DNA from: Acanthaster planci
Taxonomy: Eukaryota
Direction of reading: 5' to 3'
DNA length: 64,000 nucleotides
Assembly (NCBI RefSeq): GCF_001949145.1
Contig: NW_019091355.1
Span: 1,635,107-1,699,106, forward strand
In this document: one piece after another, positions 2,266-37,940 of the stretch
Layout of the letters: the number at the start of each line of letters is the position of its first letter
Numbering within the stretch: position 1 is the stretch's first letter
Translations under genes and position numbers: made by a program
The notes under the pieces: model-generated
What the model saw: only the letters and a program-made list of their open reading frames with translations
What the model was told of the DNA's origin: nothing
Database searches by the model: none

Positions 2266-5200
2266 TTAGATGGTTTTACAGTGTTCACACTGGAAATGCA
2301 TCTGTGCTGCCTCTCTTGCTGATACCTTTAAATTTATGCATTCCTGATGAAACCACTGGCAGCATGTGCAACAGCAGATCCACTTGATTTTCTGAAAAGT
2401 AAATGGATGATGATCATAACGTCAAACACTCCATTCACTCTGTTTATCTTTGTTTACATTTTTTCAATACAAAGGATTGCATTTCTAAAATCGGGCGCAC
2501 CTTGTGTTGTTTCCGTGTTCTTTTTGTGGGGTTCAGCTTCTTGCATTTTCCACACATATTCTGCTGAAAGAGAGAACAGAGAAGTAGGGTCACATTCAAA
2601 ATACATACTTGAGTAATTGTATGCCCTGACCAATTTATCACATATATGTTTATGTTTTAATAATGCCTTGACCTGATCAAACCCTCCTCATGATTACATT
2701 TCTCATCGGATAAAGTCATTTAGGCGTAGCATTTGGTACGTTATGAAAAAATACTTTGGCCAGTTTATTTGCACTGTCAGTGGTGACACATAATTAGCAA
2801 TTCAACCCGTGAAACAATGCCAGTTTAATCATTATCTCTCATGGACTCTGCTAAGAAAATTACTCAAAATGAAAGAAAACAAAATCAATGTTTACTTACA
2901 TGTTTTACAATCAATTACTACTTTTGTATCGACAATGAACTTACCAGCTCGGTGTCCACTGGTTGAACTTTACAACGTTCACTGAAAAATAATATTGGTA
3001 CACCAGAAGGAAGTACTTTAAGATGCGTCTGACACAACAATCTAATAGGGAAGGATGTGTTGATTGTTGAACATGATAGTACAAGTAAATGTATATAATT
3101 TGAAGCTTTCACTTGAATACTGAAGCCTGAAATTGTGTTACCTGAGTTCATTATGGTGAAGACTCTTTGAAAACAGACGTCGAGTAGCTTGCTGGAGAGA
3201 GACTGAAGTGTCTTCCTTTGATACTGTGTCATGATTTTTAAAGTGTAAAGCGAAATGACTGTCAGTATGAATGTCCAAAACTATTTGCTTCATGTAAATG
3301 GTGAAATGAAACTGTACATTTTTTTAATACATTTAAGGTGGTAAAGTTTTCATTGGCATTCTTTTCAATAACAATGAAAGCACTGTCACAAACGACTGTT
3401 CAATTTACAGTCAGATGCTGCGCTAAAAACCATTACAAAAATCCATTATTTTAACATACTGATGGTTTACTTACCGTCTGTCTCATGTTCATGTGCTTCC
3501 TCCTGCACATCCCCTTCTATTGGCTCATCCTCTCTGTCTTCTCCTGCTTTCAATTTATCACCTGCATTTTTGGTTGAATGTATAAATCTTAGTTTTTCAT
3601 TGTTAAGCATGCACAGATTTAATAGATTTCAAATGAATCAAAAAATAATAAAACTTCAGAAACCATTAAACTAGACAGTACCCAATGTGACCAGAATGAT
3701 TTGTTTGGTCTTCTTTTTAAACCGTTCTCCAACATGCTCTTGCAGTTAAAGGTGTGTTGTTAAAGACAATTGGAGTTTTTCAGTTGCATGTTGGTGGCAA
3801 ACAAACTGGTCCTTTTCTATTTTTGTGCATGTGGTTACAATTGCATGTCCACATTATCCAAAAGGACCACCGTGTCTGCCCCCACCAAGTTTCCTAAACT
3901 CTCCCAATCAATCCAAAGTTAGATGTTCACTTTATCACAATGTACAATGAATACCATTGCACATAAGGCCAAACAAAATAATAGTTTTGCTTCCTATTAC
4001 ATTGAAAACAAAATGGTTGGCAGGTAGGTTGTAGTTTTTTTCCCTTTAAATTGAAAGTTACAAATGTTTATGTTGGGTTTGATTGTCTACTGTGTACTCC
4101 TGCTGCTGTTTTTTCTCGGTGGATTTAACTTGAGGAACGGTCTGGTAAAAGAATTTGTCCAAGTAACTGAGAAGATTTAGGGTTGGCACAATTTGCTATG
4201 TCGCGGCTGGTAAAAAGAAGTGCAACTATTATTTTTTTGCGTAACATTAATGGTTTACTTACCACCAGTCTCTTGTCCAGTTTTTTCCTCCTGCATGTCC
4301 CCCTCTACAATAGGCTCTACCTCTCTACCCTCCTCTGGTTCCATCGTGCCACCTGCATATTTTGTAAAATATTGAGATTGTATTTGGCAATGGGATCAGT
4401 GTACATATATTTCAGTTCCATTCTGGTTCTTTTTATCATGTCATTATGTTTTGACTTGTGAGGCAACAAACTAAAATAGAAATGAACATTAGCTTTCCTT
4501 TGTTTACCAATTGACTCCCTGTGATTTAGACTCAGCATATAATTCCCTAAAAAAGCATGTGAAACCCTATTTTAAAGAATAATGGGAAGATGATTCATTG
4601 CGAAAAGATTTTCACAAAGGAAATGTCCTTTGGACTTGGAAATTTGTCTGCCCATTTTCCTTATTTGCAGCTTCAATATGTTTCTACAGAATTTATAACA
4701 GAATAACTCAACTCCTAAACCTAACAATTTCCAGGGTGAAAAAATGTATTATGGTTATTTTTCAATCTCAACTCCACCTTGTTCTTTAACTGAAAGCTGT
4801 GTTGGAAAAGACAATGGGGAACTTGGAGAGGGCCGGGGGGCAGACAAATTGCTTCTTTTCCACCTTAGTGAACGAATACATATGCCCGGAATTCATTGCA
4901 CATGGCAAATCATCCAGTAGGGCCACTGTGTCTGCTGGCACCAAGTGTCCCAAACTCTCCTATTCCATTACAGTCAGATGTTACAATGAAAACCATTACT
5001 CAAATCCAGTGTTGTAATATATCAGTGGTTTACTTACCATCTGTTTCCTGTCTAAGTGCTTCCTCCTGCATGTCCCCTTCCTCAATTTGATCAGTCCCTC
5101 TTTCTGCTTGTGCTTTCATTTTGCCATCTGCATATTTTTTCAATGTATAATTCATATTTTGCCACTGTGATACGTATCTTTTAGTTACCAATCTGGTTCA

Positions 5201-8200
5201 TTTCATTGTACAATTTGATTTTCATTTGTTGGACATTAAACTGAAAAAAAGTTGAAACATGCATGATATTTGTTTTCCTGTATTGATTAATTCCAAGTGA
5301 TCTATGCTAATTGTTTCACTTACACCTCTAAGTACACATCCGTATAATGTAAAGAGTACGTGAAAAAAACCATTGCCAAAACGGGCACTCACAGGAATTT
5401 CAATTTGTAGCTTGAACTTAGTCTCTACTTATTACTTAATTACAGATTCAATGTTTCAACTGAACCTATATTAAAATGATTAGAATAAAAAATCCTTTTG
5501 CATTTAGTTTAAACACTTTGACAAAATCCATTCTTCTGACAATCTTTCCTGTTGATGCTTTGAAATGGTCTGACAATGAAAGCAATATTAACAAGGGCAA
5601 TGGAACCTTTTGAGATAAAATGTGGCAGCAGAAAAACCAGTCCTTTTCCAAGTTTGTGGACATACTTTATCATAATGTACACTAAGACTATTGCACCTAA
5701 TCCAGTCTTGGGATATACACATATTAATGGCTTACCACCCGTCTCACGCTCCAGCACATCCGCTTCTTCAATGCGCTCCGCCTCTATATTCTCCTCTGGT
5801 TCCATCGTGCTGCCTGCATGTTTTTTAAAAACACAAAACTAATACTCGCAGATGTGTTCCTAGCACAAATAAATAAACACGCGAATGGTTGTTGTGACAA
5901 CAACAATGCACATGTTACAATCGGTTAATGTGCACATACTATTTTGTCTTTCACTTTAAATTGTTCATTTTTTTTAAAAAAGCTTTATTATCAATTCTTA
6001 AATGGACATATACGGAAATCCAACAAGTACAGATTTTTTTACTGAATTTATTTCTCATTTTCTATAATAGTTTCCAAATTTGATGACCAAATTTGATCCA
6101 CATACACTTAAGAAAATAGTTTCTGATATATAAATTTTACAGAAATGGTCGAATGCTATTTTCCACAGCCATAAGTTATACATGTATGTGTGCAGACACC
6201 TTGTAGATAATGTGCCCTCAATGTATAAATTCAAATATGATATTGTATATAAACTTTTAAAGCAAAAATCTACTCCAAAAAAGTCATTACCCTCCTCTGT
6301 GATCCCTTCTTGAGTCTTTATCTGGAAGGCTGAAGAGAAAAAAAATTGTCATATCATATCAATTTCAAGTTTCATATCATCTTCCTTTCATTGCTTTTTG
6401 AAATTATGATGTATGAGTTTTTATGCCTGCACTGGAGAATCCATAGAACTGATACATGTATTATTGTGCAGTGGTTAATCCTTTTCTCCTTCAAATTTTT
6501 TTTAATGTTATTTTTGGTGAATTTTTTCAATTGGTTTAAATTATTGGCAGTTAATATTGTTAACTACTGAGTCAGGTGCCATGTAATTGTCTTACTCACT
6601 GTAAATGAGGATACAATATACTTCTTGAGATTGCTTCAACATGGGGAGTCTTCCAAGTGTGGCAAATATCGAAGAGAGCATAACACAAATTAACACAACT
6701 GAATAAGAATTAGTTTGTGGACCCAGAAACTTATTATACAACCATATATATGTAATATGCATCTAGTAACTGTCATGCACATTACTATAACTTTCTATGG
6801 CTTTTTAATGCGTTCTAAGAATGGGTTCTTTTACAAAACACATAGCGTGCATGTTGATTTGTGTAAGCTCCACTTAACACTGTACAACGGAGAAGTAAAA
6901 GGAAAATCAAGAGGAGTGGTCTATGCACATACAAATGTGGCAACCACACCTTTTTGGTCACATGATTTGTACTAATAGTTTGAATTCTTTACTTCGATGG
7001 AAAGTGTTGGCTTAAATTACAACTGAAGATGCAATTGATGATAACAAGTATACTTGTAAAACATTGGTAATCTGATATGAACAGATTTTTTGAAGGGCAT
7101 TGGAGCAGTAACAAAATTTTCAATTCCTTTCGCTATTGGCAAACTGTAAAGGACAGGCATTTTTACAGTACAGTAGAGTAATCAACAAAGTCAGTGGATT
7201 GAGCACAGAAAATATAAACTTTTTAAATGGATACTTATCTCGGTTGAAAATGTAAAATTCACAGGGATGTTGGGCAATGAAAGTGCTGTTTTTTTATGTT
7301 GCATGGAACAGTTCAACTAATGAAATATTACAAAATGTCTTAAAGAGTACGCTCAATTGCAGCATCCTGTATATGGTGCACTTTGGCGTGAATCATTAGT
7401 ATGGTATCTCGATTTGGCTGAACAATTGACTAATATCATTTAGCATAGCACAGTGCAAATGCATGAAAAGCAAAACTGCGGTCGAATCGCCAGGCAGGGT
7501 AAACAAATTTGCACCACTTTGCATGTCAAAAGCATGAATGAAGTAAGCAGAGGTGTGTGGAGAAATCCCACACTGGGACAAATTACAAGTGTATACAGTA
7601 GTTGCAGAAACTTTACTGCAGAAACTGAAAAATTTCAGGAAAGGTTCACTTACCGTCTTCAATTTCTGATAGCTGTATGCGGGAAAACCTGGCAAAGGGT
7701 ATCCATACACATCTTCTGTTCCTGGGTCCCGATGAGTTCCCTCCTCTTCTGCAAATCCTTTGATGAGTTGACTCTATGTTTAGGAAAACCTGAATAGTTG
7801 TCATCATGGGATCTGAAGCAATCGCCTTTTTACAAGCCTCCTTTGGTGGGTGAGGGATCTCTTTGGCATCTAGCATATCCATTAGTCGGGCAAGGTTAAA
7901 TGCCAAGCCTTTGCTGAGTTGATACTCAACCTTCGGATTTATGGCAGTCAAAAGCTGAAAGAACATAGTTCTAAACTTAGTTTACTTAAAGTTCATACAT
8001 TAAAGAAAAACACGTAAATTAATTGCCAAATGTAGTGTTTGTGGTCAGAACATAATTTGGAAGTTAAAATAAGCCATGTATGCATTTCAGTTGTATTTTC
8101 ATTGTATTTATACAAATACAACATTTGGGGGTTTGTAATGATTTTGAATTAGAAAAATCATTCACACTTTGTGAATTTTTTGTGAATGAAACAATACTGC

Positions 8201-11200
8201 ATGTTGTGAGTTGCGCGCGCGTTTATATGTTTTTTGTTTCTTTGGCCAACACGAAACCGTCAAAGGTTGAAGCTCAGGCAGTAGAATCCTCATGTTGATT
8301 GAAAGTGTTATTTTCATGTATGAGCGTCATTGATTAAAATATGCAGTGACAGCGAGAATCCTTGTTTGGGTATTACCTCTCAGAGGCCCAACACTCTTGT
8401 TGCATCGATGATCAAACCGGCAATGTCCGCAATGTCTTTGCTGGGTGATGGGAACCCTCTCATTTTTGCACTCCCAACCTGGAACTGTTCAATGCCATGG
8501 GTAACAATTGTACTGTTGAAGAATTCCGTAGCGAGGTCAGGTGGGTAGCTTTGAAGATTAGCCTTCCGTAGGAGCTATCATGTATGAAATGGATGTGAAG
8601 ATTACTGACAATGTTAGTAATCACACGACAGAAGTTGCGTGCAAAATTCTTTTGTGCCGTAAAAAGACTCTCGCCAAGTAATGGGCCTACTTCAACTGAA
8701 ATTTTACTAACTTAAGGGGAAAAATAGTTGTCTTTAAATAGAAGACAATAATTTGTCCCCCAATAACTGTAAACCACAGAAACGGGAGGCTCAAATCCAG
8801 AAGATGTCACCCAGAAACAGCTAGATTCAACAATTCAATCAGTTACACATGAAAACTTTGAAGGCATTCATGACCTAGAAGTGTTTTTAGTGGAATGAAC
8901 ATGATGTGTAAAAGCATAAGGAAAATTCAAGTGGTGCACAAACCACTGCATTTTTATACAAAAGGCAACCATAAAATCTCTGCTACTACCTAAATTCTTA
9001 ACAACTCATGTCAACTACATAATTCAGTCTGATTCAAAGATCCTTTTGGAGCCGCATGATTGAGAAAGGGTGTAGGGACATGCATTATATATAAAACAGA
9101 CCATAATAATATCTGGAAATGAAAATTTGATAAACCCCACTAGTCTCCTTAATTTTAAAAATCCATGCTTATTTGTAGATAAAGGCGAGAAGTGATTGAA
9201 TTTCTAACAACAGGGACAGTACCTGCTCCATTCCCTAAAATTTATCCCAAACCTGTGAATCTAAAAGGGTCATGTTGTGACAGACCAAGTACATAGGAAA
9301 ATATCATCAGTCTAAAGTAGATAAGATTCACAAGTTATGTGCATACGTACGTATTCAGTTAGAAACAGAAGTATCCCATAGGTCAGATGTAAGCGGTCAT
9401 CTGCATCTGTGAGATGGGATAATGCTCTTGCTACAGCAACTCTACTTGTCTGGGAGATTTTTCTTCTGTTTTCTCTCATTTCCACACCAGCTGCAATAAG
9501 CACAGGCATACGCTGCACAGCAGAGTTTTCGAGTTCGTGTCTGTTGCTTTCTGCCTGAAATTGACGCTCGTCACATCTTCTTTGTGTACTGAGAAATGGT
9601 ACGATCACCGCCCTTGTCATCTCACTGTAAATTAAAAAGAATTGCTCAGGTACCTTCAGTGTAATTGAAGTATTTTTTTTGTACTGTCCATCTTGCTAAA
9701 AACAATTTAAAAAATGGATTTTATAATATGACATAAAATATGACAACAACATTTCAAGAGATCCAAACCACATTTTTAAAAACTACAATGATTTCTTGGT
9801 GTGAGTTTGTTTCCTTCTAGTCCAATTTCAACCTGAATAGAACAGTGTTGTCCATTTAAAGGATTATCCAATTTATCCGGTTATATCAATGTATGTGGGC
9901 TTTTAAAATCATTCTGGATTTTAAAACCATGATTTCTATTATTTCAACAATAACTGACAAAACTTTTTTCAAAACTGGATGACACTTGCATAGAGACCCC
10001 CGTCTGGAAAGATTTATTGATTTTGTTGATCATTTTACCTACCGCTCACATCCAGCCAATTTAGAGAGAGCAAACCAGTTTGCACTCACAACAGGACAAC
10101 ACTTTGGAGTTGCTTCCACTGAGCATGTCGCATCAACCCCAGCATTAAAGTACTTTGTCATCAAGCCCTTAATACTTGCAGGCTCAGCATCGTCTATGAT
10201 GACTGGGATAGAGGAAGAAGCAGTTGCCTTTGGCAAGTATCTCTCACGTGCATACCCAAGTAAAGCATTCTTCGCCCCTGTCATTTTAGATGCCATCCGG
10301 CAAGAGGTAGTTTTGCCTGGAAATGTACATTTCACTGTCTGTTAGCTCATATGAAAACCAGTGAAATAATCCAACGTAACAATAACAATTTCAGCAGTTG
10401 ACATGTAGCTCGTATTTTTGCACTATACTGGTTTTGTGATATGGAAAAGGTCCCCAGATGTATTCCAGACTTTGACAACACTAGTGTTGTCAAAGTTCTC
10501 AACTTAATGAAACTGTACTTATTTTTATACACGAATTGCAATATTTCGTTTTGAATACAACAAAAAGCATGATGGCAGCTTGATGACTTTTGGTGGGCAC
10601 CAAGGATGCCTTTTCATGTAAAAAATCTATGAATATTGTTAAACCCTTCTTCAATTGGTAACGTGACAGAAAAATGTTCTACAAATTTCTAAACGACAGT
10701 GTGCAAAATGATTGGCACTAACCTGTATTTATATCCCCGATAATAATTGGCACCGGGCAGCACTTATACAAATCTATTACTGTCTCATAGTGCAAGGACA
10801 TGCAGACACATGCTGAAAAACCAATATAATGGTTCATCGTTAGAGTTCCTCACAAACATAAATCAGGAACGTCAGCTTGTAAGCATACCTTCTCTGTAAT
10901 CATGGTTATTCAACATTATAATATAACTTCATAATCTCTTGAAAGAATTTAGACTAAAAATACAAATGAGCTAGCAATAAATCAGAATAGTAGCCAAATC
11001 CAACAAGAAATAAAAGAAATTTCACCCCTTAATGTTATTATAACCTCCACAATTCCAACTGACAAAGTGCAACAGACTGGAGTCATCGGGACCGGGCTAA
11101 CAAAATAAATTGTGCCTCAGGTCTTACACTTACAGTTGTTCAAAGCAACCAAACAATTTCCTTACCTACAGTGAAAAATGCGGCCATCGCATTTTCGTGC

Positions 11201-14200
11201 AACGTTTCTGCCAACGATAGAAACACATCTCTCAGAACTTGCTCTGAATTGGCATTGTTGAAATGTTCTGGCACTTCTAGGTTGCTTCCTGACATTGGAA
11301 GGAGTTTGTCTACCCAGTAGTACATCTGTCTTTCTGGTGGTATCTCCTCTCCATGCGCATCTAGCTGGAGAGTAGGTGACAGAACCCAGATGTCTTCCTT
11401 TGGCTGTTTGCCAACGCAAACAGCCGCCGGCTGCGTTGTTGGTATTCCTTCCTCTGTACACCGCCTGGAAATAGGACCATAGGGTCATTCTATGAGGTAG
11501 GGTCACAATTTGTAACAGTGTCTTGGTTGGATGGGTCAGTCTAAAAAAACTCACTTCTGTGTTTAGTCTTGATATCTACCAATGTCAATTGAGAACCAAA
11601 TGCAGGGAAGTAGCATTTCGTTTTTACAAACCCGTGTAACAGTGGCATCGTTACACATTGTGCCCCCAACCTCATGGAATGACCCAAGTAGTTAGCTCAT
11701 TCGATTTTGATGTATCATCAATGTAAATGCCACTTCGTACCGTACAAACCAGCTGATACGCAATGTTATTGTATTTAAATAAAGTGATCCAAGTCATTCG
11801 ATTTAAGTCATAACAAGTTTCATTTCTCTCATCTTAAAGAAGGTTTTCAAGTAAAAACATAATTATATCTCTTTCTGTGAGGATGGGGGTAGGAGTGTTT
11901 GAACCTAGAAGACATGTTCTAAATGTGACATGCCTATGGCCTGCGTGGCAGGTTCGTCAAAATCATACACCATTAGGATGAGGTTCAAATTCATTTTTCT
12001 GTTATTTATGCGCTTTATGCCAGCGAGCGAATTTCCTAGGTCTGATGAATTGAGGGGAGTAATTGCTCAGGTTCCGAATACTGAAGTCTATGTCCACATT
12101 TCTTCTTAGGCTTATTTCAAAAAATTCAGTCAAAGTGGCCAACGACGTCCACATCTCGGACTTAAAGAAGGCCACTGCGGTAAAACCTACCGGGCATTTG
12201 CATTTTTTTAAAATTAATGTTGAAAAAGTTTGCGGTAGGCCTACCCGCTGCTTATCATGAATCGGACCGGCCAGCCGACCCCGGCAAGCTCAGCGGTCGA
12301 GTGGTTAAGATGTCAACACCTGCAAGCAGGAGGTCGCGTGGGTTTGGAGTCCCACTCGAGTCTTAAAGCCCGTGTGTTTTTCACAAGCTATCGGACAGGG
12401 ACTGAGCATACAGTGTTTATCAATATACATGTATACGTTGGGTAAGGGCAAAACAAGTTATGAAAATTACATAGTATCTGTTTTCCTTCCTCCATGATAG
12501 GATGAAATACTTCTGCAGCAATTTTGCATGCATATTTGTGTTAGGATATGGTAATATTTACAACTATTAAATCTTAATCTCGAATTAAAAACACTGTGTG
12601 TCGTTGGTCATGAACTATTTTGTCGTAATAGGCCTAGTCTGATACTAGTGGTTAGGTCGGACTTAGTGCTTCTTGGTCGCCTCATTTAGACAAACCAACC
12701 ATGAAATGACAGGGCCTATGTGTTAATATTTGCCTCTTATTTCAGTTTAATGATTATTCATCTCAAGTGTCCCTCGTAACCAAGTGACGCAAATCGATGC
12801 ACATTCATGAGTACAGCTTCATTTTGTCAACTCGATTATGCAACGGAGGCGTCATAAGATTTTTGTTATTTGGTTGTTTACATATCGTTTTGGTACTACC
12901 AGGATGTGAGAAGCATATCAGCAGACCATAGGCACTAGTACCCACGTATAACGCGCCTTTGCACGACTCGGCCCTCATGACGAGAAGACAAAAGTTCTTC
13001 GTTTCAAATTTGAAATTGTGACGTCTCTAACGCAAATGCTGCGCGAGTATTTGATTTATCACGGCAGGAATTTAAGATTTGAAGCGGGCATAACTCACCT
13101 GTAGAACTTCTCTACCTCACACAAAAAGAATTCCTTTAATTCACTCTTGCTGAATGTGTGAAGGAGTCCGCCACAGCCAGCTCCTTCGATGCCAAAAGAC
13201 TGTGAAAGTTCCGTCGTGAACTTATCCAAGCCAGCTTGAATGCAGGAGTGCGTGATGAAGCACAATCTGGTAAAAATGTTCGGTAGCTTATCAGAATTCA
13301 GGTTATATGAACACAAAAGTAATCAGAGGCGTTGTATGTCAGCACAAATGCATTTACGTTGGTCGATACGATTCATCGACCATTCATGAGAAAATAAAAA
13401 ATTACTTATTCCAAACACCGAAATGTTTTTGGCTATGCAAAAACAAGTTTCAGAGGTTACAAACCCACCATTGATTCTTATTCGTAGATTACACATTTTC
13501 ACAAATCAATTTAATTTCAAACGTTACCGCTAAGAGTTTTTAAATTGACATTCAGAAAGACTTTACAATTCCTGTGCGCACGTGATTACCTGTCACAAAT
13601 CCAGCTTGGATAAGGAATTTATAGCAAAACCAAGAACTAGTTTCAATAGGCCCGTGCTACCAAAGCCATTGCTTCAAGTTCAAATGGGTGCATAATTACT
13701 AAATCATTAGTATAGAACTAGTACAACAGTCAGGATTGGTCTTGGATGGCACAGATCAATTACAATTCCAGAAGCCGGGGAAACGACAATTTCAACTCAG
13801 GTGATGCCATCAAGTTTATAAGAATCTCCGCCACATCACTATGCAAAGCCTGACCGATAATCCTTTTTTGAGATTTACGACACAAATGAGGCTACCCCGG
13901 CCCGCGGCTGCCCTCTCATGGGCGCCGTTGACTGTGATATTGCTAGCCGACAGTATTCGTAAACAAGTTATCTTTGTCCTTGCTCCATGATTAAAGCCTC
14001 TTCTTCTTTTTACAGCGGGTTTTAAAAAGACTATCGATGGTCAAGGTATAAGGATAATCTGGGACTTAATTCTAGTTTATTATCAAATACTTCTGCCGCC
14101 GCCGCCGCATCCATCAATACAATCAATATGATGTTTGCCAACCCAACGAGCCATGTTACTTTAACACCGAGGGACGATATCGCGCAAAAAGTTCTCTTTC

Positions 14201-16011
14201 CAAATATGTGATAAACGACAATAAAAAAACCGAGGTCTTAATCCTAAAAACCATACCACTTTTGAAATTATCTCCAATTCAAACTTAATCAACAAAATGA
14301 GCAATTACCCGCATTTATTATTCAAAAACACGGCAAACGTGTATTGTGCAACGTGAAGTTGGCTGACCACCCACCTCACACGAGTACCTCTGTACTGGAG
14401 AATGTACGTTTTTCTAGCAATGAATGTTTGTAACCGAGGAAAAGGGTTTGGTGCAGGTTTCAAAACCGAATTTATTATCAAATGACACTGAATGTCAAAA
14501 TTGATATCAGCAGCTGGGACAAGGAAAAAAATTAATAAGTTGGGGGAACTGCGAGGGAATCTCATCCCGGAAATGATTAATATCATATGCTACATACACA
14601 CATCAGATTTCATTCAAGGTCTGAATAAAAATTAACATGACCACCGCCAAAAAAATCAGAACGTTTACAACAATGTCAATGATAATCTAAAACCAAATAA
14701 TAAAAATTAGGGTATACATTAAACAGATAACAATCGACGCAGAACCAATACTCTACCAGATACAATGTCTAGCACAAAGCAAGTTGCAAACCTTTTTCAA
14801 TGGGTCTGTCAAACTCCCAAGTCAGATTGACGCAGAAGTAAATTTGACCCCGGGATTTTTGTCGAGTGGAGTGCATTTATAAATTGTTGAACGTGCAGGT
14901 ATCAGAGGCAGCTTCAACATGGTATGAAATTGAATAGACAGTGCATAAATCCCCAAAGTAAGAATTGTAATACACGGACATATTACCGCAAATGTTATTC
15001 AAAACAGTTATTACAATGAATTGACAAAGCACAACCGTTCAGGTTAAACAGCTAACAGACAAACTACAATATCCGCTCTTTGGCCTCACGAGAAAAACAC
15101 GTTTCTGTAATGCATCATCCAAAGGTTTAGGCCTTGGTGCGATGGTGTGGTATGGACAAATGTAATCTCCAACCCTCAATAAACAAGAACGTAATTACCC
15201 AGGCCCAGCCGACTTGGCTGAACCCTGTGATAACTCTAATTATTAATTGAAAGAATAAACTGGGAGCTTGGTCTTTGGTTTAATCCACCCACACGTTAGA
15301 ACTGGAGGCATTCTCATGTTACAGGGCACCAGTTTCTTTTCCACCAAAATGTAATATAAAAACCATAGCATTAGCACCATACCTTACATGCAAAGTTCAA
15401 TGCACAATCTCAAATCGTAACCCTATTACGAAACGTCCACTGTCCATTTCAGCCAGTAGTATTTTGACCTCGCTAAAAATCCATGACAGACGAATTCGGA
15501 GTTGTCAGTGGGGCTCAAAACATTACTTGATAATGGACATGGACAATGAAAACGTTCCTTGGGATGTGCTAGTTGAAGTGATGTTTTCATTTTCTTATAT
15601 TATGATAGAGGAATCGTTCACATACATGTACTGCTGTTCGCTTCTTCTCCATACAAATAACACCAGCTTATGTAAAGAAGATTCTCAATCAATCGTTTTC
15701 AAAAAGTGCGTATTAAACTCTTAATGAAAAGTATATGTTTTGAAACAATTCCTCCCGTTAATTCAGTTTATGCCATTTTACATTTACGTATAAAGTACTG
15801 GTATGTAAATAATGTTAAAAAACGGTTTGTTTGCTTACCTGGTGGTATTCATCAAGGCACTACTAACATCAATTAGCAACCCAGCACTCTGCGACTTGTG
15901 TCCGGCATTTATGATTTTTCGTACCGTCATGGTGAATGATGCGACCTCCTTTCTGCTTATTATTTTATTTTGTTCATTTCTCCGGATTTTCCAAGTTCTA
16001 TTGTCCGCCAT
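2266..16011 (-). CDS. 17-exon gene: P-loop AAA+ helicase-like domain (DUF927/Cch- or SF3-like), acidic repeats and C-terminal PHD finger; about 815 codons with one in-frame TGA at codon 491 (possible recent pseudogene)
   Basis: Exons, all GT-AG and phase-compatible: 16011-15839, 13266-13099, 11464-11166, 10812-10723, 10316-10043, 9624-9351, 8574-8377, 7954-7654, 6329-6291, 5813-5736, 5127-5038, 4352-4263, 3561-3475, 3202-3142, 2981-2945, 2563-2501, 2391-2266 (2448 nt). Motifs: Walker A PIIIGDINTG|KTT split by an intron, Walker B PVIIDD, sensor-1-like VVSAN, Arg-finger-like TRAVIVPF. PHD finger: CGKC...KIKWICCCTCCQWFHQEC...FQCEHC-stop. The ATG at 16011 directly follows an acceptor, so the true start may lie upstream (17095-17049 is open in frame). 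Confidence 0.8.
12275..12455 (+). mobile_element. Degenerate tRNA-derived SINE, family B
   Basis: tRNA-like head gctcagcggtcgagtggttaag...gggtttggagtccc followed by body gagcatacagtg...gggtaagggcaaaac. Confidence 0.55.
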
Positions 16012-29000: not shown

Positions 29001-32000
29001 GTTTTACTCCTATCAAAATGACAAGTACATGTAAACTCGACAAACAGGCAAACAGAAAATCAACCAAGTATGGATGAATGCAAGAGGACAAAAGGAAAGG
29101 TCAAGAAAGCTGCAGGCTGGATAAAGGGGAAAAGGATCAAGGGGACTGGTTGAATAACAAAGGAATGTAAGCAGGGAAGAGATCAAAGAAAAAATACAAT
29201 GGATGGAACTGGACTGCAGACAAAAAAGAAGGGAAATAAAAGAGTGTTAATTAGTAGGTTCATTCTTGGATGCTCAGGCCATGGGGTTGTACAGTATGGT
29301 GCAGAGGTATTCATTCAGAGCTTCTCCCAGGTGACAAACAGGCAAACAGAAAATCAACCAAGTATGAAGGAATGCAAGAGGACAAAAGGAAAGGTCAAGA
29401 AAGCTGCAGGCTGGATAAAGGGGCAAAGGATTTGTGACCTGTCACCACAAAATGAGCTAACTTCACACATACGAGATATTGGTAATTTTTGAATTTAGCA
29501 GAAATTGAGCTTTCCAATGGCATGTACATGGAACACTTAGGGTAGAAGTACAAGGTGACAATGTGACATTATTCTGGCAGGTTTGCATCTTTGTTCCCGA
29601 CATTGTTTCAACATTTCAGACCAGGAACAGATAGTGCTATCGTCAAAATTGCTAAGGAAATGACAATTTGCAATATGTTATTCTGCAAAATATTTGAAAA
29701 TAAATAGGAAGTGGTTTACTCTTTCCAAAAATTAACAAACCAAAACATTGACCTCTAACTTCAATATGACTCTGAACCCTCAAAACAGGAAAGAGTGGGA
29801 TGCTACTTTACTCTCATTTTGTCGTGACAGGTCACATATTTGACATCAGAAGAGCTACAAGTGATGGTACCTCTGGTTCAGTGGGTGGTAACGCAGGAGT
29901 GTCAACAGAAATGTATCTGATTCCAGGACATGGTTCTGGCAAACAGCACATCTGTTAAAATCCAAGCTCAAGGTGCCATGCTGGGATGGGGAAGGGTAGG
30001 GGGGGGGGACTCTGGCCGGGTGAAAAGGTCAGATGGCTTGCAGGGTCGCCTTTAGAAGTTTTGTATTACAAAAACCCCTGGACACAATTAAGCATGACAC
30101 TCTCCTCATTAATCCTCAGCCAAACCCATTACTCCTCAGCCTAACTATGGAATGCCCTACCATGGCATATACAGAGTGAGCAAAGCCACACCATTGTAAC
30201 ATGTACAGTTAAAACTTAACTTTGTAATATTGCATTTGTCCAGTGACATATTAAACTGCAAGATTCAGGATTTTATTAATTTTAACTAGTAGGGTTATTA
30301 AAATTTTTTAGTTTTTATCTTAACGTAGGTTCAGCTGTGATTCGTTATTTTAGTGTCACTGTGTCTGGTATAATTACTTTTCTTTTATCGTAGGTAAGGA
30401 GCAGGCCAAACAAAACAATGTTCGAGGAAGTTTCTGTTTCTTTGGATAATTGATTTGGTTTAAGCAGTTCACATGTTTATAGAATAGAAGGTCAAATCGA
30501 AATGTTCCTAGGATGGCTATTAGATTTCATTTGAAAGCAGTCTTTTAGGAAAGTGCATCTAACGTAAGGTTACCATACTTTGGAGAACATTGGTTTTTGT
30601 AAGCTAATGCACTGTAGTGAGGTTTTGAGGAATTTAGGATATGGGAGTTCCTCCTTTTTTGTATAGCCTTAGATTGAAAGTGCCTGAAGTCATACGAACC
30701 GATTTAACCTTTCCATGTTATCCTTGTATATCTTAGTCATGAGTTTTGGGTATATGTGTACACTTTTGTATTCTTCTATTGCCATGTGGTTGAACATGTA
30801 TCTTGGATAAGACAGTTTTCTTTGTTCACCCTTCCTATGCCTCAACACATGGTTGGAGCAATTTCAGTTTATGACTAGGGATTAGGATTAGTGTTGCCTG
30901 CCTTCCAAGAAGTGGCCAAGTCCTTTGTTAATTGCATCATGATTATTCATGAGTTAAACCTGACTTCTTGTATATACATGTAAGCCCCATGCTTAAGTTG
31001 GGATAAGGATGAAGCCTTCACATGTACATGTACTAGCCTTGTATAATGCACTGAATAGTTCTTTGTTGTAGCATTCATTTATAAGTTTTCCATATTTATT
31101 CTGGTTGTTGAAGTTTGATCGTAATTGATTTGTGCCTTTTCTTGATACTGTGTTTGGTTTTGGTTTGTTTTTTGGGGGGGTCGTTATTTTCTCAATACCC
31201 GTTTCTGTTTTTTTAGTACTGCTGATATTTATTGAGAGTATTTTACTAAAAGGTTAAGGTTTACTGGGTCTAAAAGTTGACTTTCTAGGTCTCAAGTTTA
31301 CGGTCTGAGGTATTTTCACTAATTTGGGTTTTTTTGCTTTTCTTTGACTTTTCATTTTTGTTACTTTTTTATCGGCTAAGAAGTTACTTAATAGATTGTA
31401 GATTAGTTTTTTTCTAGATTGGCTCTTGTTTGTTGAATCAAATATTTTTTTCTTTTGACTATTTTTGAGATCAAACACTTTTTCCGTCCTGTCGTATTTT
31501 TCTTAAAAATACCTCACGATTTCTCCTTAGTTGATCCCTAGTTAGGTATTATTTTGTGCAAGCGATTTCCCCCCAGAGTTGTCTTCTTCCAGTGTTCCTT
31601 TTTTTCAAGTTACATTTTTAAAAAATCATTTTCGGTACAGGTACGTGATCATCTACTTGTCAATGTACATGTACGTGTACTAGCAAGTCACTATCAAACC
31701 TTTTAAAATCCAAAATGGCTCTATTTCGGATTTGAGGTGATACAGCATGGAAAGCTCTTTGCAGGACATGTCTAGGATGAGTTCCTCTTAGTAACAAACC
31801 TGACTAAATCAAGCATACTTTGACCAGACCAACTGGAAAGAACCTACAGTACATGTAGCAAAAAATGCTGTTACGTGTTATGGGTGCTGGGTTGTTAGGG
31901 CTGATATACATAGCAGCAACTGAGACACTCAATAGAAAAAACAAATGGTTTTTCTGGAGTATTTAACAATATTCAAAAATTGTATATGCACTGCAAAGAA

Positions 32001-35000
32001 ACTAATGTACAGTTCTAAACCTGGTATTTACAGTTACATACCATGCATAGGCTTAACCTCTTCAAAATAGTAACTTTTACCTGTGGAATCGGTATGAGCA
32101 TCATCTCCTTTGACTCCACAGTACTTCAGAAAGTCAGCCAGACCAGTTGGAATGCTCGACTGTTTCGCAACTTCGCAGTGCTCTGTGCAAAATGCCTGGC
32201 CATATAATGGGGATTTGGTACAGACATCTGGTAGGCTGGGGACTGGGATGCCAGACACTTTATTCTAGAGAGTGGAATGGACAAAATAAGAAAAATTAAT
32301 CAGGAAATGTTTAATAAATTAATTTAAAAAATGCAGTTAAATGAAATCAAACAAGTTACTAAGCAAAATAAATATGGCTGGGTAACTCAGTTGGTAGAGC
32401 ACTGGTATGGTATTCCACAGGGCACAGGTTCAAGTCCCCCCCCCAGTCAATTTCTTTGTTCATCTTTGTAATCATTCATAAGCACCTAGTCAGCTTCCCT
32501 GTATGATTTGTTTCAAATAAATATAAAAAAAGACCTCATAAACAGTACACTGAGAGAATGCAGAGAGCTTGCCTGAAACACAGAGAATGGACAAATTCTG
32601 AAAGGAAACAACTACATGAATGCAAACCTGAATGATCATAATATTCAGAAATTTTCATCCAACTTAAACAATAAATGGCCATAAAAAGTCTAATAAAGCA
32701 CTGAGCACACTCTCACTAAAAAGGAACGATTTACTGTCAAAAAAAGGAAACAATAAAGTGGATGAATATGGTCATGGTCAAGTTTTTTCATGGCATTCAT
32801 TGAACACTACATTCAAAGATCTATTTACAGAACTATGACCATATAGGAAAAAGCAATTTTATAATGTAGATAAATAATGCATCTTCTTCATTCTTAATGT
32901 GAAGTCCTTTTGCGAGAGGTATTAAATACAATTATGTCTCACTGGTAAGCATTCTTTAAAATGTAATATATAGGTTCTAGTAACACTGAACATAAAAAGT
33001 GAAACTGTTTCAATTTACACTCATACCTCACATCGATGCATACAATGCGGAAAACTCAGTTTCCAGATGCCATCTGCCACAAAGACACGGCCGCAACCTA
33101 TTTCAAATGATTGCAATGATTTCAAAGTATTCATTCTACAAGAAAAAACGACAATAGCAAGCGTACAATTGAGTTGAATGATAATGATCACCTCTATTCA
33201 CCCAAAGGATATTTACACATACGAACATCACATTTGCTTTGCTACAAAAAGGAAAAGAGGCATATAGAACCCCTTAAAAACATGCCTTAACAATTACAAT
33301 GCGGTTTCAGTTCTCAAATGAAATTCCAAAACAAGAGTTGTTCCTCAGGGGTTTTAAAAAGTCGAAGGTGGTATCTTACATAAAGGGAAACCAAAAAACA
33401 TTAGCAAAAAATGTTATAAAGGTAACATAACATAAGCTAAATGCATGCAATTAAATGCAAACACTTCTGCTGCAAAAAATTTAAAAGACAAGTAACTAAC
33501 CTTTCGCTTCACATTTGGGATGGCAGTTGGTATGATCATAAATCGTCTGCCGACGAATACTTTCAATCCGCTCCAAGAGTTTTTCTCGGTCTCCATCTGT
33601 CTTGAGCAAACCAAACATATCAAGTCGTCTGCGTTCACGTAGTTCATTGTGCAGCTCTCCATGAAAGAATGCTGAGGAAACCTGTTTACTGGAGATCCCT
33701 AAAACAAACACAAACCCAAGGGTGTGATTTCATAGTAATTAAATATGAAAATTGTGTGCGAACACACCTGTCACAGTAACATTTAGGTACTGCAGGCCTG
33801 GGTCAGGGTGGTTACATAAACATCCATTGGTTCATTGACTTCAGGGGTGTCACACAAAAGAGGAAAAAACAGTATCTACATTTACCACACAAACTTGTCT
33901 GTGGGGGATAGAATGCACTGTTACGAAATCATACAATAATTTGGTTTCTGATGCCATCCACAAACACATAATATACTTATTCTTTGCTACATATATGACA
34001 CATTTGATGGAGTGATGGTTTCATTAACAGTGTACTTCCAAGATGATAGAGTAAGGTCAGCTTTAATTTGCACTTTTTATAAATGATGTCCGAAAGTTGA
34101 ACGGATGTAACGCTGCATTTGGGATGATAAACGAAATGATTTTTCAGATTTTTAGAAGTTTTTGATTTGTTAAAAAGCTTGAGTTTTATTATTTACAACA
34201 TAACTATTAATATTTATGATAAGGTTAGGGCAACACATGCTAAGCAGCAAAAAGCGGAAGTTGAATACTACAATGTACTATGCAACATTTCAGTACAAGT
34301 ACATGTTGGCCTGAGTCAGAGATTGTTGCAAGCCAGTTAAAGATCATGTGATGTAAGCTAAACATACGCATTTCGAATGCGAAAATGCAATTAATTGATA
34401 ACCGCCTTTTCCCAAGATACTCCTGAACTTAAAAACAATGCGTTCAGCTATAAATATAGCCGCCTGCCTCTATCCAAAAAAGCCCCCAATTTGGGGTTTT
34501 TGGCGAAAGCCCCAAAATGGAAACTTTCAGTCCCTCCTGATTAGGACATGTGTAACTGTACAAACCATGTGAGCTCACACAATAGGTCCTTATCAATTAA
34601 AACTGCTGTCATTAATTTAAGGACCCTGAGCTGATGAAAATTAGAAAAAATTGATAGCAATGAATTTAAAACTACTGACAACAGATTAAGTTTATGACAG
34701 AGAAAGACGACAATAATGGCAAATAATCTGTGCACGAATCTTAAATTTCTTTCACAGGAATTGATAGGAGTACACATACCTTCACTTCTTGATAGGCCAA
34801 ATGCAGTGTTGAAGGACTCAGCAAAGCCTACGAAACTGACCCAAGAATGATTCCTGAGGAAAAAAGACAATACAACCAGTAGACTCCAATATAGAAAAAA
34901 AAGAATTTAAATTGATGAACAAAATTTTAAACTGTAGAAAATCAGTGCAGGTGCTAACTCGTCCAATGAATCATATGTCAATGGAAACTTTTGTCAGCAT

Positions 35001-37701
35001 AAAAACAAGAAAGTGGCAAGTAAATTACGAAACATTATGTGGAATCATAGCACAGGTTGGACACCTTCTACATTGCATTACGACTATAACGCCCAGGGTA
35101 TAAATGCAAAAGTGTTATTACACATTTTTGTCTCAAAATGTCATTTGGGAGTGCTACCAATGACTGTTTCACGGTGGCAAAAAAGAAAGGCGCTTACTTG
35201 CTGCAAGTGAGTTTTATGGACAGTTGTGATTTGGGGGAGGGGGCGGTACCTGAGCACTGTATTTGTTTCTGGGAGGGCCATGTTTCACCCATAGAGTTAT
35301 TGCAGATTCAAAATCAAAGTCTGCGCATTTCAAAGGAGCAAGCAGCGAAATGTTTCAAGTGTCATGCATGTGTCAGCAAAAACGGTCAGATTTGGACACG
35401 TAACATGTATGTCACAAAAGATATTGAAGTGCCAAAAGTTTGCCGGCCATTTAAAACAGACATTAGGTGGGGAAAAAAGGGGTTTTGGGTGAGTTTGGGA
35501 ATTTTTGAGAACCATTTTCACTGAACTGTATGGTGGTTCATTAGCACCCTGTTCCTATAGGCCCAAATGAGGAAACATAGTCCACTTTCTCAAACTAACT
35601 TACATTTTGACCTTAAGGAACCATTACTCAATCCTGATAGGCCTAGTTTAGGTAAATGTTGACAAGATCTAAGCAAGAAAACTTCGAATTTCTGACAAGA
35701 GTTTGGCAAAAGACAACCACTCATTCAAATGAAGCCATTTTGTTTTTCGTCTGGTTACCCTATTCTGGCTTTTTACATTCATCAGAAACAATCCCGACCC
35801 AGGTCAAGGAACCACACTGTATCTGCTTATTTGTCATTCACAACTCTATTTGGGGCAGTCATTTACGCTGCTGTTTAACCAAAAACCAAAAGCCCTGTCC
35901 TCTTTCTGATATGAAAGAGGACATCACCAAAAACTTTTTTTGATAAGTTATTTCAAAAAAGTAGAATTTGTTCCCTTATAATCCAGTTCATAAGTGTGAC
36001 GTCACTTCAGTTTAAATCACACCCACTGCACATGAACTGATCATACAGTTACATGTATTGATCGTCATTTACTGGAACCGTGCAACCACAAGTTAACCCA
36101 CAACAACATCGACCACCCATTAAGAATCTGTTAAGTGTGGCGTGTTTTCCTTTGTGACAAATTTACTTACAAAACGGATAGGAACTGAGTGCTAAAGGTA
36201 ATGAACCCCACTATAGGCCTACATGTACTGTTGTGTAGCATTACTAGCTGCATGTATGACCGATCCCATCCAAGAGGAATAGGTTACTCATGCTCCACTT
36301 TTGTCATGTCAGTTGAGTCCATGATTTGGAAGAGTGGCATAAGTGAACATAGTGAACCGACTTTATCCTTCCACAGCAACATAAAATAATTACCATGGCT
36401 GTTGTTACCGCAGCCGTAACGCATCTCCCATTTTCTATCGTTACGGCACTGCAACTGCGCAAGCACGCCAACTTAGCACAGATTTTGGACTTTATTTCCC
36501 TTTAAAAAAATCCTCCAAAGCCTCCAATGAAAAAAGAAAAAAGATTCCTGCTTAGGCCTATACAATTAAAAAACAACGTAAAAAAAATAGGGATATGGTA
36601 TAAAACATTAAATTTAGGCAAAAAAAACACAAATGAAATGGTCCAAGTGCGGATTCCAACTCACACACCAGTGGTTCCCAATCTTCTACCTTGACCATAT
36701 ATCGACAGGAATATAATACCTTGTGAGTATGCTACTTCTGAACTGAATCTGCTTGCCCTGAAGAAGGTTCTTAGTTAACTGAAAGCTCAACAATCACAGA
36801 TTTTCGAGCACTGTTTGGATAATCCTGTCCATATTCTGATCTCGGAGCTACGCAGCCCTCCCATATTCCATCTTGACCACGAGAATTCGGGGATCCAGGT
36901 AATTTTAAAATATATGAACCGTCGTGATGATCAGCTACGTCATCGCACTTGCACAAGTTCAGTGTCGTATTAACAGAAAATGAGAAATGCGTTATGACTG
37001 CTGCAACAATAGCCACTTCTTATAATAATTATTCAAAGCAAACATAAGTAGCATACTCACGCAAGGCTGACCTGCAGTTCAAACAAGTCGCGTTGAAAAT
37101 ACACAACATTACTGGCCTCTATGAAGGGTTGAACCTTTTCATACAGATGAAACGATCTGGAGCTACTGCCATAACAGTCGTATCTATATGTCAGACTACA
37201 ATTGCGGCAGCGTAAGTTCGACTTCAGCCCTTTGAAGCACCCCTGCAAAGTCACGACTTTCACCTTCACCGGCTGATTGTGTGGCTTCAATTCAAGTCCA
37301 CATTCAAGGCAGGTTGAGTAGGGTGGAACCAAGAAGAAGTTGGGCCCCGTTGCTGAGCTGGCACTGGTAGTGGTATGATCACTTGCGGTAGATCTCAGTT
37401 GCCCCAATAAGAGTTTAATCAGTTTGACGTCTACTTCCAGCGTTGAAGCCAAAATGCAAGGGTCATATAGCGTGGAAATACTACTGACTTCGATGGCTCT
37501 GACTACTCGGCTCACTTCCTCAAATCCAAATTTAGACACTGCAAGTCCAAACTGCTCGTTTGGCGACAGCAGACGAACAGCATGTGAGGAAAGGTCCAGA
37601 TTGGACAAAGCGTCCTTGTACTGCTGCACTGCCCTGTCCTCTTCTTCAAGTTTGCCCACAAAAGAACCCAAATCAAACTTTGCTATTTTCTTTTTGGGCA
37701 T
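23098..37701 (-). CDS. 9-exon KDZ-family (Kyakuja/Dileera/Zisupton) transposase-like protein with CxC5-like N-terminal and CxC6-like inserted Cys clusters, about 730 aa, uninterrupted frame
   Basis: Exons 37701-37061, 34853-34780, 33698-33501, 33097-33027, 32264-32081, 26833-26555, 25652-25569, 24739-24553, 23572-23098 (2193 nt, phases consistent). CxC5-like region PPYSTCLEC...LRCRNCSLTYRYDCY...FIEASNVVYF. Core motifs VADGIWK, CTKSP...FCTEH, SESPSQV, YDNMCHL, VDRLHVRNH...C, NTLCAEQTFVWL. Additional small exons in the 5.2 kb intron (26834-32080) cannot be excluded. Confidence 0.85.
23990..24241 (+). mobile_element. Tc1/mariner transposase C-terminal relic in the last intron of the KDZ gene
   Basis: Translates as DWPSNSPDLNAIKNL...LVTNMPYNIQEVIAEN*GHVKH*, matching Tc1 WPxxSPDLNPIENxW...MPxR...VIxxKGGxTKY; has stops and a frameshift. 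Confidence 0.8.
27955..28550 (+). mobile_element. 5'-truncated non-LTR retrotransposon (CR1/L2-group) ORF2 3' end, frameshifted
   Basis: YLG..NLKWESHI; LILPKLMYGSAAWYP..LDMIQRSA; LDWPNLE..RLSLMYQI; TRGH; YVNSLFP*TIPHWNTLP. This is the canonical post-RT C-terminal segment of these LINEs. Confidence 0.85.
29040..29430 (+). repeat. About 95-bp direct duplication (29040-29135 and 29335-29430)
   Basis: acaaacaggcaaacagaaaatcaaccaagtatg...aggtcaagaaagctgcaggctggataaagggg occurs twice, nearly identically. Confidence 0.9.
29430..29839. mobile_element. MITE of about 410 bp with about 27-bp TIRs
   Basis: Left atttgtgacctgtcaccacaaaatgag; right ctcattttgtcgtgacaggtcacatat (near-perfect reverse complement). 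Confidence 0.75.
32376..32515 (+). mobile_element. tRNA-derived SINE, family A copy 2
   Basis: taactcagttggtagagc...ggttcaagtcc...ccagtcaatttctttgttcatct; clearly homologous to 392-495. Confidence 0.7.
36740..36868 (+). mobile_element. Further copy of the same Penelope-like hammerhead repeat, in KDZ gene intron 1
   Basis: gaactgaatctgcttgccCTGAAGAaggttcttagttaactGAAAgctcaacaa...atattctgatctcggagctacgcagccct, homologous to 46642-46772. Confidence 0.7.
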
Positions 37702-37940
37702 GGTATTGATTCATCATAAATACAACTGTTTCAAACGCAAAAAGACAAAGATAAGCAGAATACCCAACGAGAAATGTAAGTCGAAAAGCAATGATATGAA
37801 AAATCTAAACACGTGCGTGCGATGGCTAGAAGAAAAGGGAACGTAAAGGGAGGGAACGCGCATGCGTGGGGTTTGTAGCAGGTAGCGATGCTACAAACTA
37901 CCAGCCCTGATTTCTTTCGTCCCATTTCGTGCATCAATTG

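What the first reader, a model, noticed from the sequence alone, without database searches (positions are those of the whole stretch)
2266..37940. Candidate giant intron-rich transposon: KDZ transposase co-oriented with a helicase-PHD gene
Seen: a KDZ-like transposase gene (37701-23098) is followed about 7 kb downstream on the same strand by a spliced P-loop helicase-like gene ending in a PHD finger (16011-2266), and no recognisable host housekeeping gene lies in these 38 kb. Known: KDZ transposons carry chromatin- and DNA-modifying cargo (TET/JBP in fungi; SAP, SWIM and Ulp1 in Zisupton), and DUF927/Cch-like and SF3 helicases are typical of phages, genomic islands and virus-like elements. Inference: this may be one large element coupling cut-and-paste transposition with its own helicase and a histone reader. 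I do not recall this pairing being described.
Basis: partly seen in the sequence, partly recalled or inferred. Interest (0 to 1): 0.9.

Follow-up and report, generated by a model that had tools for sequence, protein, structure and literature searches.

The report
Giant KDZ transposon carrying Cch-type helicase
Two intron-rich starfish genes, a KDZ-type transposase and a protein predicted to be a bacterial-style ring helicase ending in a PHD finger, sit side by side here and recur as neighbours in other DNA, so they are likely the core of one large jumping gene that would help copy itself, although this copy's helicase gene is broken and its ends were not found.

Summary
Both genes are real. 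The transposase gene (37701-23098, 9 exons) equals Acanthaster planci XP_022102484.1 and keeps CxC5 and its conserved acidic motifs. The second gene (16011-2266, 17 exons) has Walker A/B motifs and a PHD finger; a paralogue's model matches the SCCmec helicase Cch best (Z 22.4). This copy carries an in-frame stop, and two other animals hold a version lacking 12.4 kb of it.

The pairing recurs: consecutive accessions on a second A. planci scaffold, accessions 12 apart on one Patiria scaffold, and a helicase hit in 5 of 80 metagenome KDZ loci (4 of 8 with a flank of at least 4 kb). Orientation varies, so co-orientation is not a defining trait. One of three DNA runs covers the transposase gene at about 2.8 times the neighbouring gene's depth, falling back across the N-gap.

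Ends, TIRs, TSD and an empty site were not found. Eight literature searches showed no description, but key KDZ papers and Repbase were unavailable. The scan noted this pairing before on other DNA. Verdict: a probably decaying copy of an apparently undescribed two-gene KDZ variant.

The parts
23098..37701 (-). KDZ-type (CxC5) transposase gene, 9 exons, 730 aa, open frame; conserved motifs VADG (D313), YDNMCH (D608), DRLHxxNH (641-648), AEQTF (E673)
   Evidence: 100% match to XP_022102484.1; Pfam CxC5; motifs in alignment A3
2266..16011 (-). Cch/DUF927-type AAA+ helicase-like gene with low-complexity linker and C-terminal PHD finger; 17 exons, 822 codons
   Evidence: gene model from splice sites and paralogue alignment; 64% identity to P0020 and 46% to P0058 over the core; fold of paralogue P0020
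10043..10812 (-). Exons 4-5: Walker A (GDINT-GKTT across the intron), Walker B (VIIDD) and the conserved Asn (SANW)
8380..8382 (-). In-frame TGA stop in exon 7 of the helicase gene (codon 491), upstream of the last core exon and the PHD finger
   Evidence: its state in other animals was not resolved (rows hidden)
3475..5813 (-). Four duplicated small exons (78-90 nt) encoding the acidic low-complexity linker
   Evidence: direct repeats D3 and D5; exon scan; joint 3559/4261 spliced in X24
2266..2563 (-). Last two exons: PHD finger
   Evidence: Pfam PF00628 above cut-off
3452..15863 (.). 12.4-kb stretch missing in a second allele or copy, removing most of the helicase gene
   Evidence: contig joint 3451-15864 in both DNA runs laid (X3, X14), with lower depth inside; shorter side only 26 letters
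16012..23097 (.). Intergenic spacer, CpG-rich (o/e 0.84) against CpG-poor gene bodies (0.41-0.44); no ATG-ORF over 102 aa
34932..36955 (.). About 2-kb repeat-rich insertion in intron 1 of the transposase gene, absent from some alleles or copies
   Evidence: joint 34931-36956 in X3, X14 and X5; lower depth over 34902-35631
37941..38700 (.). Assembly gap; the likely place of the transposase-side end (inferred)
   Evidence: X14 depth about 90 on the left and about 31-34 on the right; extra coverage over 37007-37940 in all three DNA runs

Best explanation
The window holds a KDZ-type transposase gene and, 7 kb downstream, a broken gene for a predicted Cch-type ring helicase with a PHD finger, and the two are likely the core of one large DNA transposon whose helicase would unwind the element so that host polymerases can copy it. 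Shown: both gene structures, the ATPase motifs, the fold match of a paralogue, the recurring linkage, the stop codon and the deletion variant. Inferred: the DDE-type transposase cuts at ends lying in or near the N-gap and left of position 1 (unit over 38 kb); the helicase self-loads on element DNA as Cch and SaPI Rep are reported to do, raising copy number during or after excision (no primase or polymerase gene was found here, so host enzymes would be needed); the PHD finger would dock it on chromatin. This copy is probably helicase-dead and decaying. Odds: one mobile unit by descent about 0.8; replication role for the helicase, given that, about 0.55.
For: Linkage: A. planci helicase-PHD XP_022111568.1 (LOC110990775) and KDZ XP_022111569.1 (LOC110990776) are consecutive records on a 32,084-bp contig. 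Patiria miniata KDZ XP_038066277.1 and helicase-PHD XP_038066289.1 share the contig length 21,754,841. Of 80 metagenome KDZ loci (the best 80 of 88), 5 hold a helicase-core hit (E 3e-64 to 2e-05): 4 of the 8 loci with at least 4 kb of flank, plus L059; 12 of 80 hold the core or a neighbouring PHD ORF, in 7 of 39 DNA families. Reversed-ORF control: best helicase E 0.95. Expected by chance 0.005-0.05 hits if a 400-Mb genome has 3-30 copies (assumed figures). L061 and L070, with the same assembly prefix, are about 90% identical across both genes and the spacer. Several copies per genome: 4 KDZ and 3 helicase loci in A. planci counting the window, and two near-identical KDZ records on one Patiria scaffold. 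Depth: 4 of 5 listed X14 pieces over the transposase gene are at 88-93 against 26-32 for 3 of 3 pieces over the neighbouring gene. Helicase identity: AF2 model of P0020 pLDDT 77.6; Foldseek best 5DGK Cch E 2e-08; VIA-align Cch Z 22.4 (rmsd 3.9, 296 aligned), SaPIbov1 Rep Z 19.6 (rmsd 11.1, 369), MCM Z 14.6; atlas first hits bacterial unnamed and DUF927 clusters at 0.98; Walker A Lys in 96 of 96 aligned rows, Walker B Asp 83 of 87, Asn 70 of 75. Sequence relatives include Prim-Pol/PriCT-2/DUF927 fusions, one of whose relatives lies beside a phage integrase in a cyanobacterial genome. Cch role: passages of PMC7581432.
Against: No TIR, TSD, terminus or empty site found. X3 and X5 cover the transposase gene at about the neighbouring gene's depth (18-22 vs 17-24; 35-44 vs 31-35), as a fixed single locus would; the tool warns that contig depth is no copy number, and X14's excess could be a tandem duplication. 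All 18 best DNA holders hold 92-100% of the sampled words of 7600-11500 (selected as holders). 3 of the 8 long-flank loci (L024, L043, L067) show neither helicase nor PHD on the one side held. Helicase LOC110985028 (contig 2.18 Mb) has no KDZ partner among the proteins found, and Patiria P0058 and P0004 share a scaffold but lie 2,852 accessions apart. Linkage in the named genomes rests on accession numbers, not coordinates. Gene bodies are CpG-depleted like the host neighbour, which fits long residence. The KDZ model was too poor to test the RNase H fold (pLDDT 51.5), and P0001 itself does not hit Pfam KDZ; its 51%-identical relative P0005 does. No helicase or transposase activity was tested.
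Confidence: 0.6

Rival explanations
1. Same element, different job: the ATPase is a target-selection adaptor (in the manner of MuB, TnsC or IstB; recalled) that reads a histone mark through its PHD finger and brings the transposase to chosen chromatin, with no role in replication.
For: PHD finger kept at the C-terminus from sponge to starfish; weak profile matches to PHD fingers of KDM5, BPTF, DIDO and MLL (E 0.02-0.2); the inferred end lies about 2 kb from the first long exon of a host gene (one site only); no primase or polymerase gene in the 38 kb.
Against: Fold matches rank Cch, SaPIbov1 Rep and MCM first; no MuB, TnsC or IstB row is among the 50 shown (absence is weak). Sequence relatives are primase-helicase fusions. 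Binding to the transposase was not tested.
Confidence: 0.2
2. A domesticated or immobile gene pair: an old KDZ element fixed beside the zinc-knuckle gene, the transposase gene kept, the helicase being lost, and X14's extra depth a local segmental duplication.
For: Open, spliced transposase gene with an NCBI model and a few RNA reads on exons in X24 (9 at 25579, 4 at 26802); host-level depth in 2 of 3 runs; stop codon and 12.4-kb deletion confined to the helicase; CpG-poor gene bodies.
Against: Divergent paired copies at other loci and in four gene arrangements-by-family; extra coverage of the 5' end in all three runs. This rival concerns this locus, not the family.
Confidence: 0.15
3. The helicase gene is a passenger or belongs to a separate virus-like element that happens to co-occur with KDZ transposases in repeat-rich regions.
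For: Variable orientation; one A. planci helicase with no partner found; DUF927 folds are common in phages.
Against: Neither protein alignment finds a relative in viral contigs (0 of 65 and 0 of 79 pattern matches confirmed); both genes are intron-rich; genes lie within a few kb of each other in compact loci (L074: helicase, PHD and KDZ within 6.2 kb); pairwise identities of the two proteins correlate over 7 pairs (Spearman 0.61, Mantel p 0.012; weak, driven by three starfish pairs, L059 poorly aligned).
Confidence: 0.05

Closest known systems
KDZ (Kyakuja-Dileera-Zisupton) DNA transposons, including giant forms
   Same: CxC-type zinc cluster plus KDZ-type transposase; extra genes; large size (Cryptococcus KDZ1 10.9 kb with 236-bp TIR and 8-bp TSD, PMC11588098 passages; Ectocarpus up to 30.3 kb, PMC12477816 passages; Chlamydomonas Zisupton-3 31.7 kb, PMC9977147 passages).
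   Different: The accessory gene is a Cch-type helicase-PHD, not TET/JBP or an unknown ORF; none of the passages read names a helicase in a KDZ element; no SAP, SWIM or Ulp1 domain in the Pfam scan of P0001; termini not found here.
Cch of SCCmec and SaPIbov1 Rep (DUF927, MCM-like self-loading helicases)
   Same: Best fold and profile matches; ATPase motifs kept; sits beside a recombinase gene in a mobile unit (PMC7581432 passages).
   Different: About 12% identity; spliced animal gene; PHD finger and repeat linker added; partner is a DDE-type transposase, not a serine or tyrosine recombinase (recalled); no SSB or primase gene beside it.
AcademH and KolobokH helicase-carrying DDE transposons
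   Same: A cut-and-paste-type transposase paired with a helicase in animals and fungi.
   Different: Their helicase is DEAD/Helicase_C (SF2) type (PMC10799480 passages), not an AAA+ ring helicase; different transposase superfamily. The AcademH paper itself was not held.
Helitrons, Polintons/Mavericks and Teratorn
   Same: Large eukaryotic DNA elements with their own replication-related genes (PMC6431247 passages).
   Different: No HUH Rep, polymerase B or capsid gene found in the 38 kb; no relative in viral contigs.

Membership tests
KDZ transposons | N-terminal CxC zinc cluster | tested here: met
   CxC5 54.9 bits, cut-off 26.9
KDZ transposons | KDZ transposase domain (PF18758) | tested here: inconclusive
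   P0001 has no hit at E 5; relative P0005 (51% identical overall, 68% over the last 224 aa) passes at 29.9 bits, cut-off 26.6
KDZ transposons | Conserved acidic catalytic triad candidates | tested here: met
   D313, D608 and E673 present and conserved in alignment A3; their catalytic role is recalled, not tested
KDZ transposons | RNase H-like fold | tested here: inconclusive
   AF2 model pLDDT 51.5 from 13 sequences; not searched
KDZ transposons | Defined termini (TIRs in Zisupton; CA..TG without TIRs in Kyakuja) | tested here: inconclusive
   No end-to-end inverted repeat; one end is probably in the N-gap and the other outside the window
KDZ transposons | 7-8 bp target site duplication and empty site | not testable with these tools
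   No genome held; ends not located; read laying takes 20 kb at most
KDZ transposons | Dispersed multiple copies | tested here: inconclusive
   Divergent paralogues on several scaffolds; raised depth in 1 of 3 runs; no near-identical copy with different flanks shown
Cch/DUF927 helicases | MCM-like AAA+ fold with DUF927-type N-terminal part | tested here: met
   Tested on paralogue P0020 (64% identical): Z 22.4 to 5DGK; window protein not folded
Cch/DUF927 helicases | Walker A, Walker B, sensor Asn and Arg motifs | tested here: met
   Present in window exons 4-6 and conserved in A2
Cch/DUF927 helicases | Pfam DUF927 above cut-off | tested here: inconclusive
   P0020, P0058 no hit; animal relative P0089 20.3 bits against cut-off 22.6; P0183 passes
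Cch/DUF927 helicases | Hexamer formation, 3'-5' unwinding, origin binding | not testable with these tools
   Needs biochemistry; no complex prediction was run
SF3/D5 helicases | Closest fold among D5/E5/PriRep helicases | tested here: inconclusive
   They match (Foldseek E about 2e-05) but rank below Cch and are not among the 50 VIA rows
AcademH | RecQ-like SF2 (DEAD, Helicase_C) helicase | tested here: not met
   No DEAD or Helicase_C hit in P0020 or 29 relatives; fold is AAA+

The most novel reading that the evidence does not exclude
An animal-wide lineage of KDZ transposons took an MCM-like initiator helicase from prokaryotic mobile elements, fused it to a histone-reading PHD finger, and uses it to replicate its own 10-40+ kb DNA on host chromatin: a eukaryotic counterpart of SCCmec/SaPI-type excise-and-replicate islands built on a DDE transposase, still changing copy number in crown-of-thorns starfish.
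Probability: 0.35. Interest if true: 0.87.

Novelty: new variant of a known kind. Interest (0 to 1): 0.68.

Why it matters
Cut-and-paste transposons are not known, in the papers I could read, to carry their own ring helicase. A Cch/MCM-like helicase with a PHD finger kept beside KDZ transposases in starfish and other animal DNA would point to a copying or targeting step missing from current models of giant DNA transposons, and would trace a replication enzyme of bacterial genomic islands into animal genomes. Compact copies such as L074 (both genes within about 6 kb) make the mechanism testable.

Tried and rejected
No whole genome is held, so copy counts and synteny come from protein records and read depth only. 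Search for end-to-end inverted repeats in the window and in 6 long loci: nothing that brackets both genes. The shared boundary of L061 and L070 (2586/2515) is not a terminus: it lies in a transposase intron. Viral contigs: no relative of either protein. The 97-row helicase alignment was too divergent for the search for related loci, so the metagenome scan was seeded from the transposase side only. No RNA holder listed for 7600-11500; that is no evidence on expression. The stop codon could not be checked in other animals because 205 difference rows were hidden. The KDZ structure model was too poor to use. The search of earlier findings by sequence and by place returned nothing. The PHD profile control on reversed ORFs reached E 0.014, so the weakest PHD hits (L070, L074, L035) are marginal alone. 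GC bias as the cause of X14's depth is unlikely: depth is 96.7 at 37337, in a 44.7% GC kilobase. Atlas search with the transposase did not complete. Literature: 8 searches listed no paper on a KDZ-helicase-PHD element; Iyer 2014 and the AcademH paper are not held; Bohne 2012 is known only through citing passages; Repbase and all supplements were not seen and may describe such elements.
Full report
Observation. The window is eukaryotic, with N-gaps at 37941-38700 and 60379-60978; no whole genome is held. The last exon of the first gene is 100% identical to P0001, which NCBI names LOC110985613 of Acanthaster planci. All 730 residues map to 9 minus-strand exons between 37701 and 23098 (my notebook's '10 exons' was a miscount). 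Pfam finds CxC5 above cut-off; the KDZ profile is passed by the relative P0005 but not by P0001. Alignment A3 (13 sequences) conserves VADG, YDNMCH, DxLHxxNH and EQTF, all intact in P0001; reading these as the DDE triad is recalled knowledge.

Second gene. Guided by paralogues P0020 and P0058, the gene from 16011 to 2266 resolves into 17 exons, all AG/GT, 822 codons. It has Walker A split by an intron, Walker B VIIDD, the conserved Asn and Arg motifs, four duplicated small linker exons and a PHD finger. One in-frame TGA lies at 8382-8380, and no identical protein came up in two searches. RNA run X24 shows 2 of 16 introns spliced (3 and 4 reads); X21 shows none. Both DNA runs laid on 1-20000 hold a contig joining 3451 to 15864 and lower depth inside (X3 11-13 against 17-24; X14 51-52 against 77-114), so a version lacking most of this gene exists (the joint's short side is 26 letters).

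What the second protein is. The AF2 model of P0020 (97-row alignment, pLDDT 77.6) matches Cch of SCCmec first by Foldseek (E 2e-08) and by VIA-align (Z 22.4, rmsd 3.9, 296 aligned), then SaPIbov1 Rep (Z 19.6) and MCM (Z 14.6). A profile search gives Cch as the best match over the ATPase core, though only at E 0.002; viral-structure hits are DUF927 and primase-helicase proteins; the atlas returns bacterial unnamed and DUF927 clusters at 0.98. phmmer with P0058 finds 289 proteins at E 0.001, 150 listed, some through the repeat tail only. Of 10 looked up, named ones come from Acanthaster, Amphimedon (with PHD), Branchiostoma (2), Clytia and Ptychodera; two unnamed ones are Prim-Pol/PriCT-2/DUF927 fusions, and a relative of one sits beside a phage integrase in a cyanobacterial genome. 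PMC7581432 (passages) describes Cch as a DUF927, MCM-like helicase thought to replicate the excised element, with replication in vivo not yet shown; PMC9371898 (abstract) describes SaPI Reps as self-loading helicases.

Do the genes travel together? In A. planci, helicase-PHD XP_022111568.1 and KDZ XP_022111569.1 are consecutive on a 32,084-bp contig; they are 42% and 66% identical to the window's proteins over the compared parts, so this is a separate, old lineage. In Patiria, XP_038066277.1 (KDZ) and XP_038066289.1 (helicase-PHD) share a contig length. Against this, LOC110985028 has no partner among the proteins found, and P0058 and P0004 are 2,852 accessions apart. These are accession-level arguments, not coordinates. 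In metagenome contigs, 80 KDZ loci were fetched (281,744 bases, most under 5 kb). The helicase profile hits 5 of 80 (L074, L013, L061, L059, L070), including 4 of the 8 with a flank of at least 4 kb; with PHD ORFs it is 12 of 80, in 7 of 39 DNA families. Reversed ORFs give no helicase hit under E 0.9. Orientation: convergent in L013, L061 and L070; helicase first in L074; transposase first in L059 and the window. L061 and L070 are about 90% identical through both genes and the spacer. Identities of the two proteins correlate weakly across 7 pairs.

Is this copy a mobile unit? Per-contig depth (the tool warns it is no copy number) over the transposase gene against the neighbouring gene: X3 18-22 vs 17-24, X5 35-44 vs 31-35, X14 88-93 vs 26-32 (leaving out, in each run, one piece over the intron-1 insertion: 10.7, 15.9, 61.7). 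X14's excess spans both genes and ends between 37940 and about 38701-39292, that is at the gap. All three runs show extra coverage over 37007-37940, as short derivatives sharing an element end would give. On the left, depth at 1-487 resembles the helicase interior in both runs (12.7, 46.4), so the unit probably continues beyond the window. No TIR, TSD or empty site was found. L061 starts with a 50-bp tandem array about 650 bp before its transposase ORF, the position of the gap here; a satellite end was mentioned in an earlier AI note and is only a lead.

Mechanism. I commit to a large KDZ transposon whose Cch-type helicase would unwind the element for host polymerases, with the PHD finger docking it on chromatin; every functional step is inferred from fold and motif. 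A targeting role for the ATPase is the main mechanistic rival; a fixed, domesticating locus is the main rival for this copy, whose gene bodies are as CpG-poor as the host neighbour.

Known and new. Giant KDZ elements with extra genes are in print: Cryptococcus (PMC11588098, passages), Ectocarpus (PMC12477816, passages), Chlamydomonas (PMC9977147, passages), fungal TET carriers (PMC12730594, abstract and passages). Helicase-bearing DDE transposons exist with SF2 helicases (PMC10799480, passages). PMC6431247 does not mention KDZ or Zisupton. Eight searches (listings only) showed no KDZ element with a DUF927/Cch helicase-PHD gene, but Iyer 2014 and the AcademH paper were not held and Repbase and supplements were not seen. 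Earlier AI notes of this scan report the same pairing on other DNA; they are leads, not support. Verdict: new variant of a known kind, interest 0.68.

Noticed in passing
window:39011-39964: About 950-bp nested palindrome (five inverted arm pairs, 77-96% complementary), high coverage in all three DNA runs: a fold-back or MITE-like repeat between the gap and the host gene.
   Followed up: no
window:46540-46745 and 36740-36867: A 206-bp inverted-repeat element whose arms recur inside the 2-kb insertion in intron 1 of the transposase gene (repeats I1, I8, D13, D17).
   Followed up: no
window:389-492 and 32372-32476: Two copies of a tRNA-like SINE-type repeat (label recalled), very high coverage.
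   Followed up: no
window:27751-28457 (+): Broken ORFs resembling the C-terminal part of a LINE reverse transcriptase (recalled; no Pfam hit) inside a transposase intron.
   Followed up: partly
window:40457-48303 (+): Host gene with zinc knuckles (Pfam zf-CCHC), divergent from the transposase gene; the name ZCCHC7 was not verified.
   Followed up: partly
window:55735-60378 (-): Multi-exon host-like gene with two long low-complexity exons (506 and 297 aa), no Pfam hit in the three ORFs scanned.
   Followed up: no
window:1-1162: Depth drops to the level of the helicase interior in X3 and partly in X14, suggesting another breakpoint or diverged stretch near 1130-1160; unexplained.
   Followed up: partly
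window:26611-26789: 27-bp tandem repeat forming a Ser/Thr-rich insertion exon in the transposase, at a site where relatives carry different insertions or none.
   Followed up: partly
L074:3377-9502: Compact copy: helicase, PHD and CxC5-KDZ gene in one direction within about 6.2 kb; a frame break lies in the last KDZ exon.
   Followed up: partly
L070:1502-1954 (-): MADF/Myb-SANT ORF replacing the first transposase exon region present in L061, probably a nested insertion.
   Followed up: no
L081:617-5859: Cyanobacterial phage integrase gene divergent from a Prim-Pol/PriCT-2/DUF927 primase-helicase, a distant prokaryotic relative of the animal helicase.
   Followed up: partly
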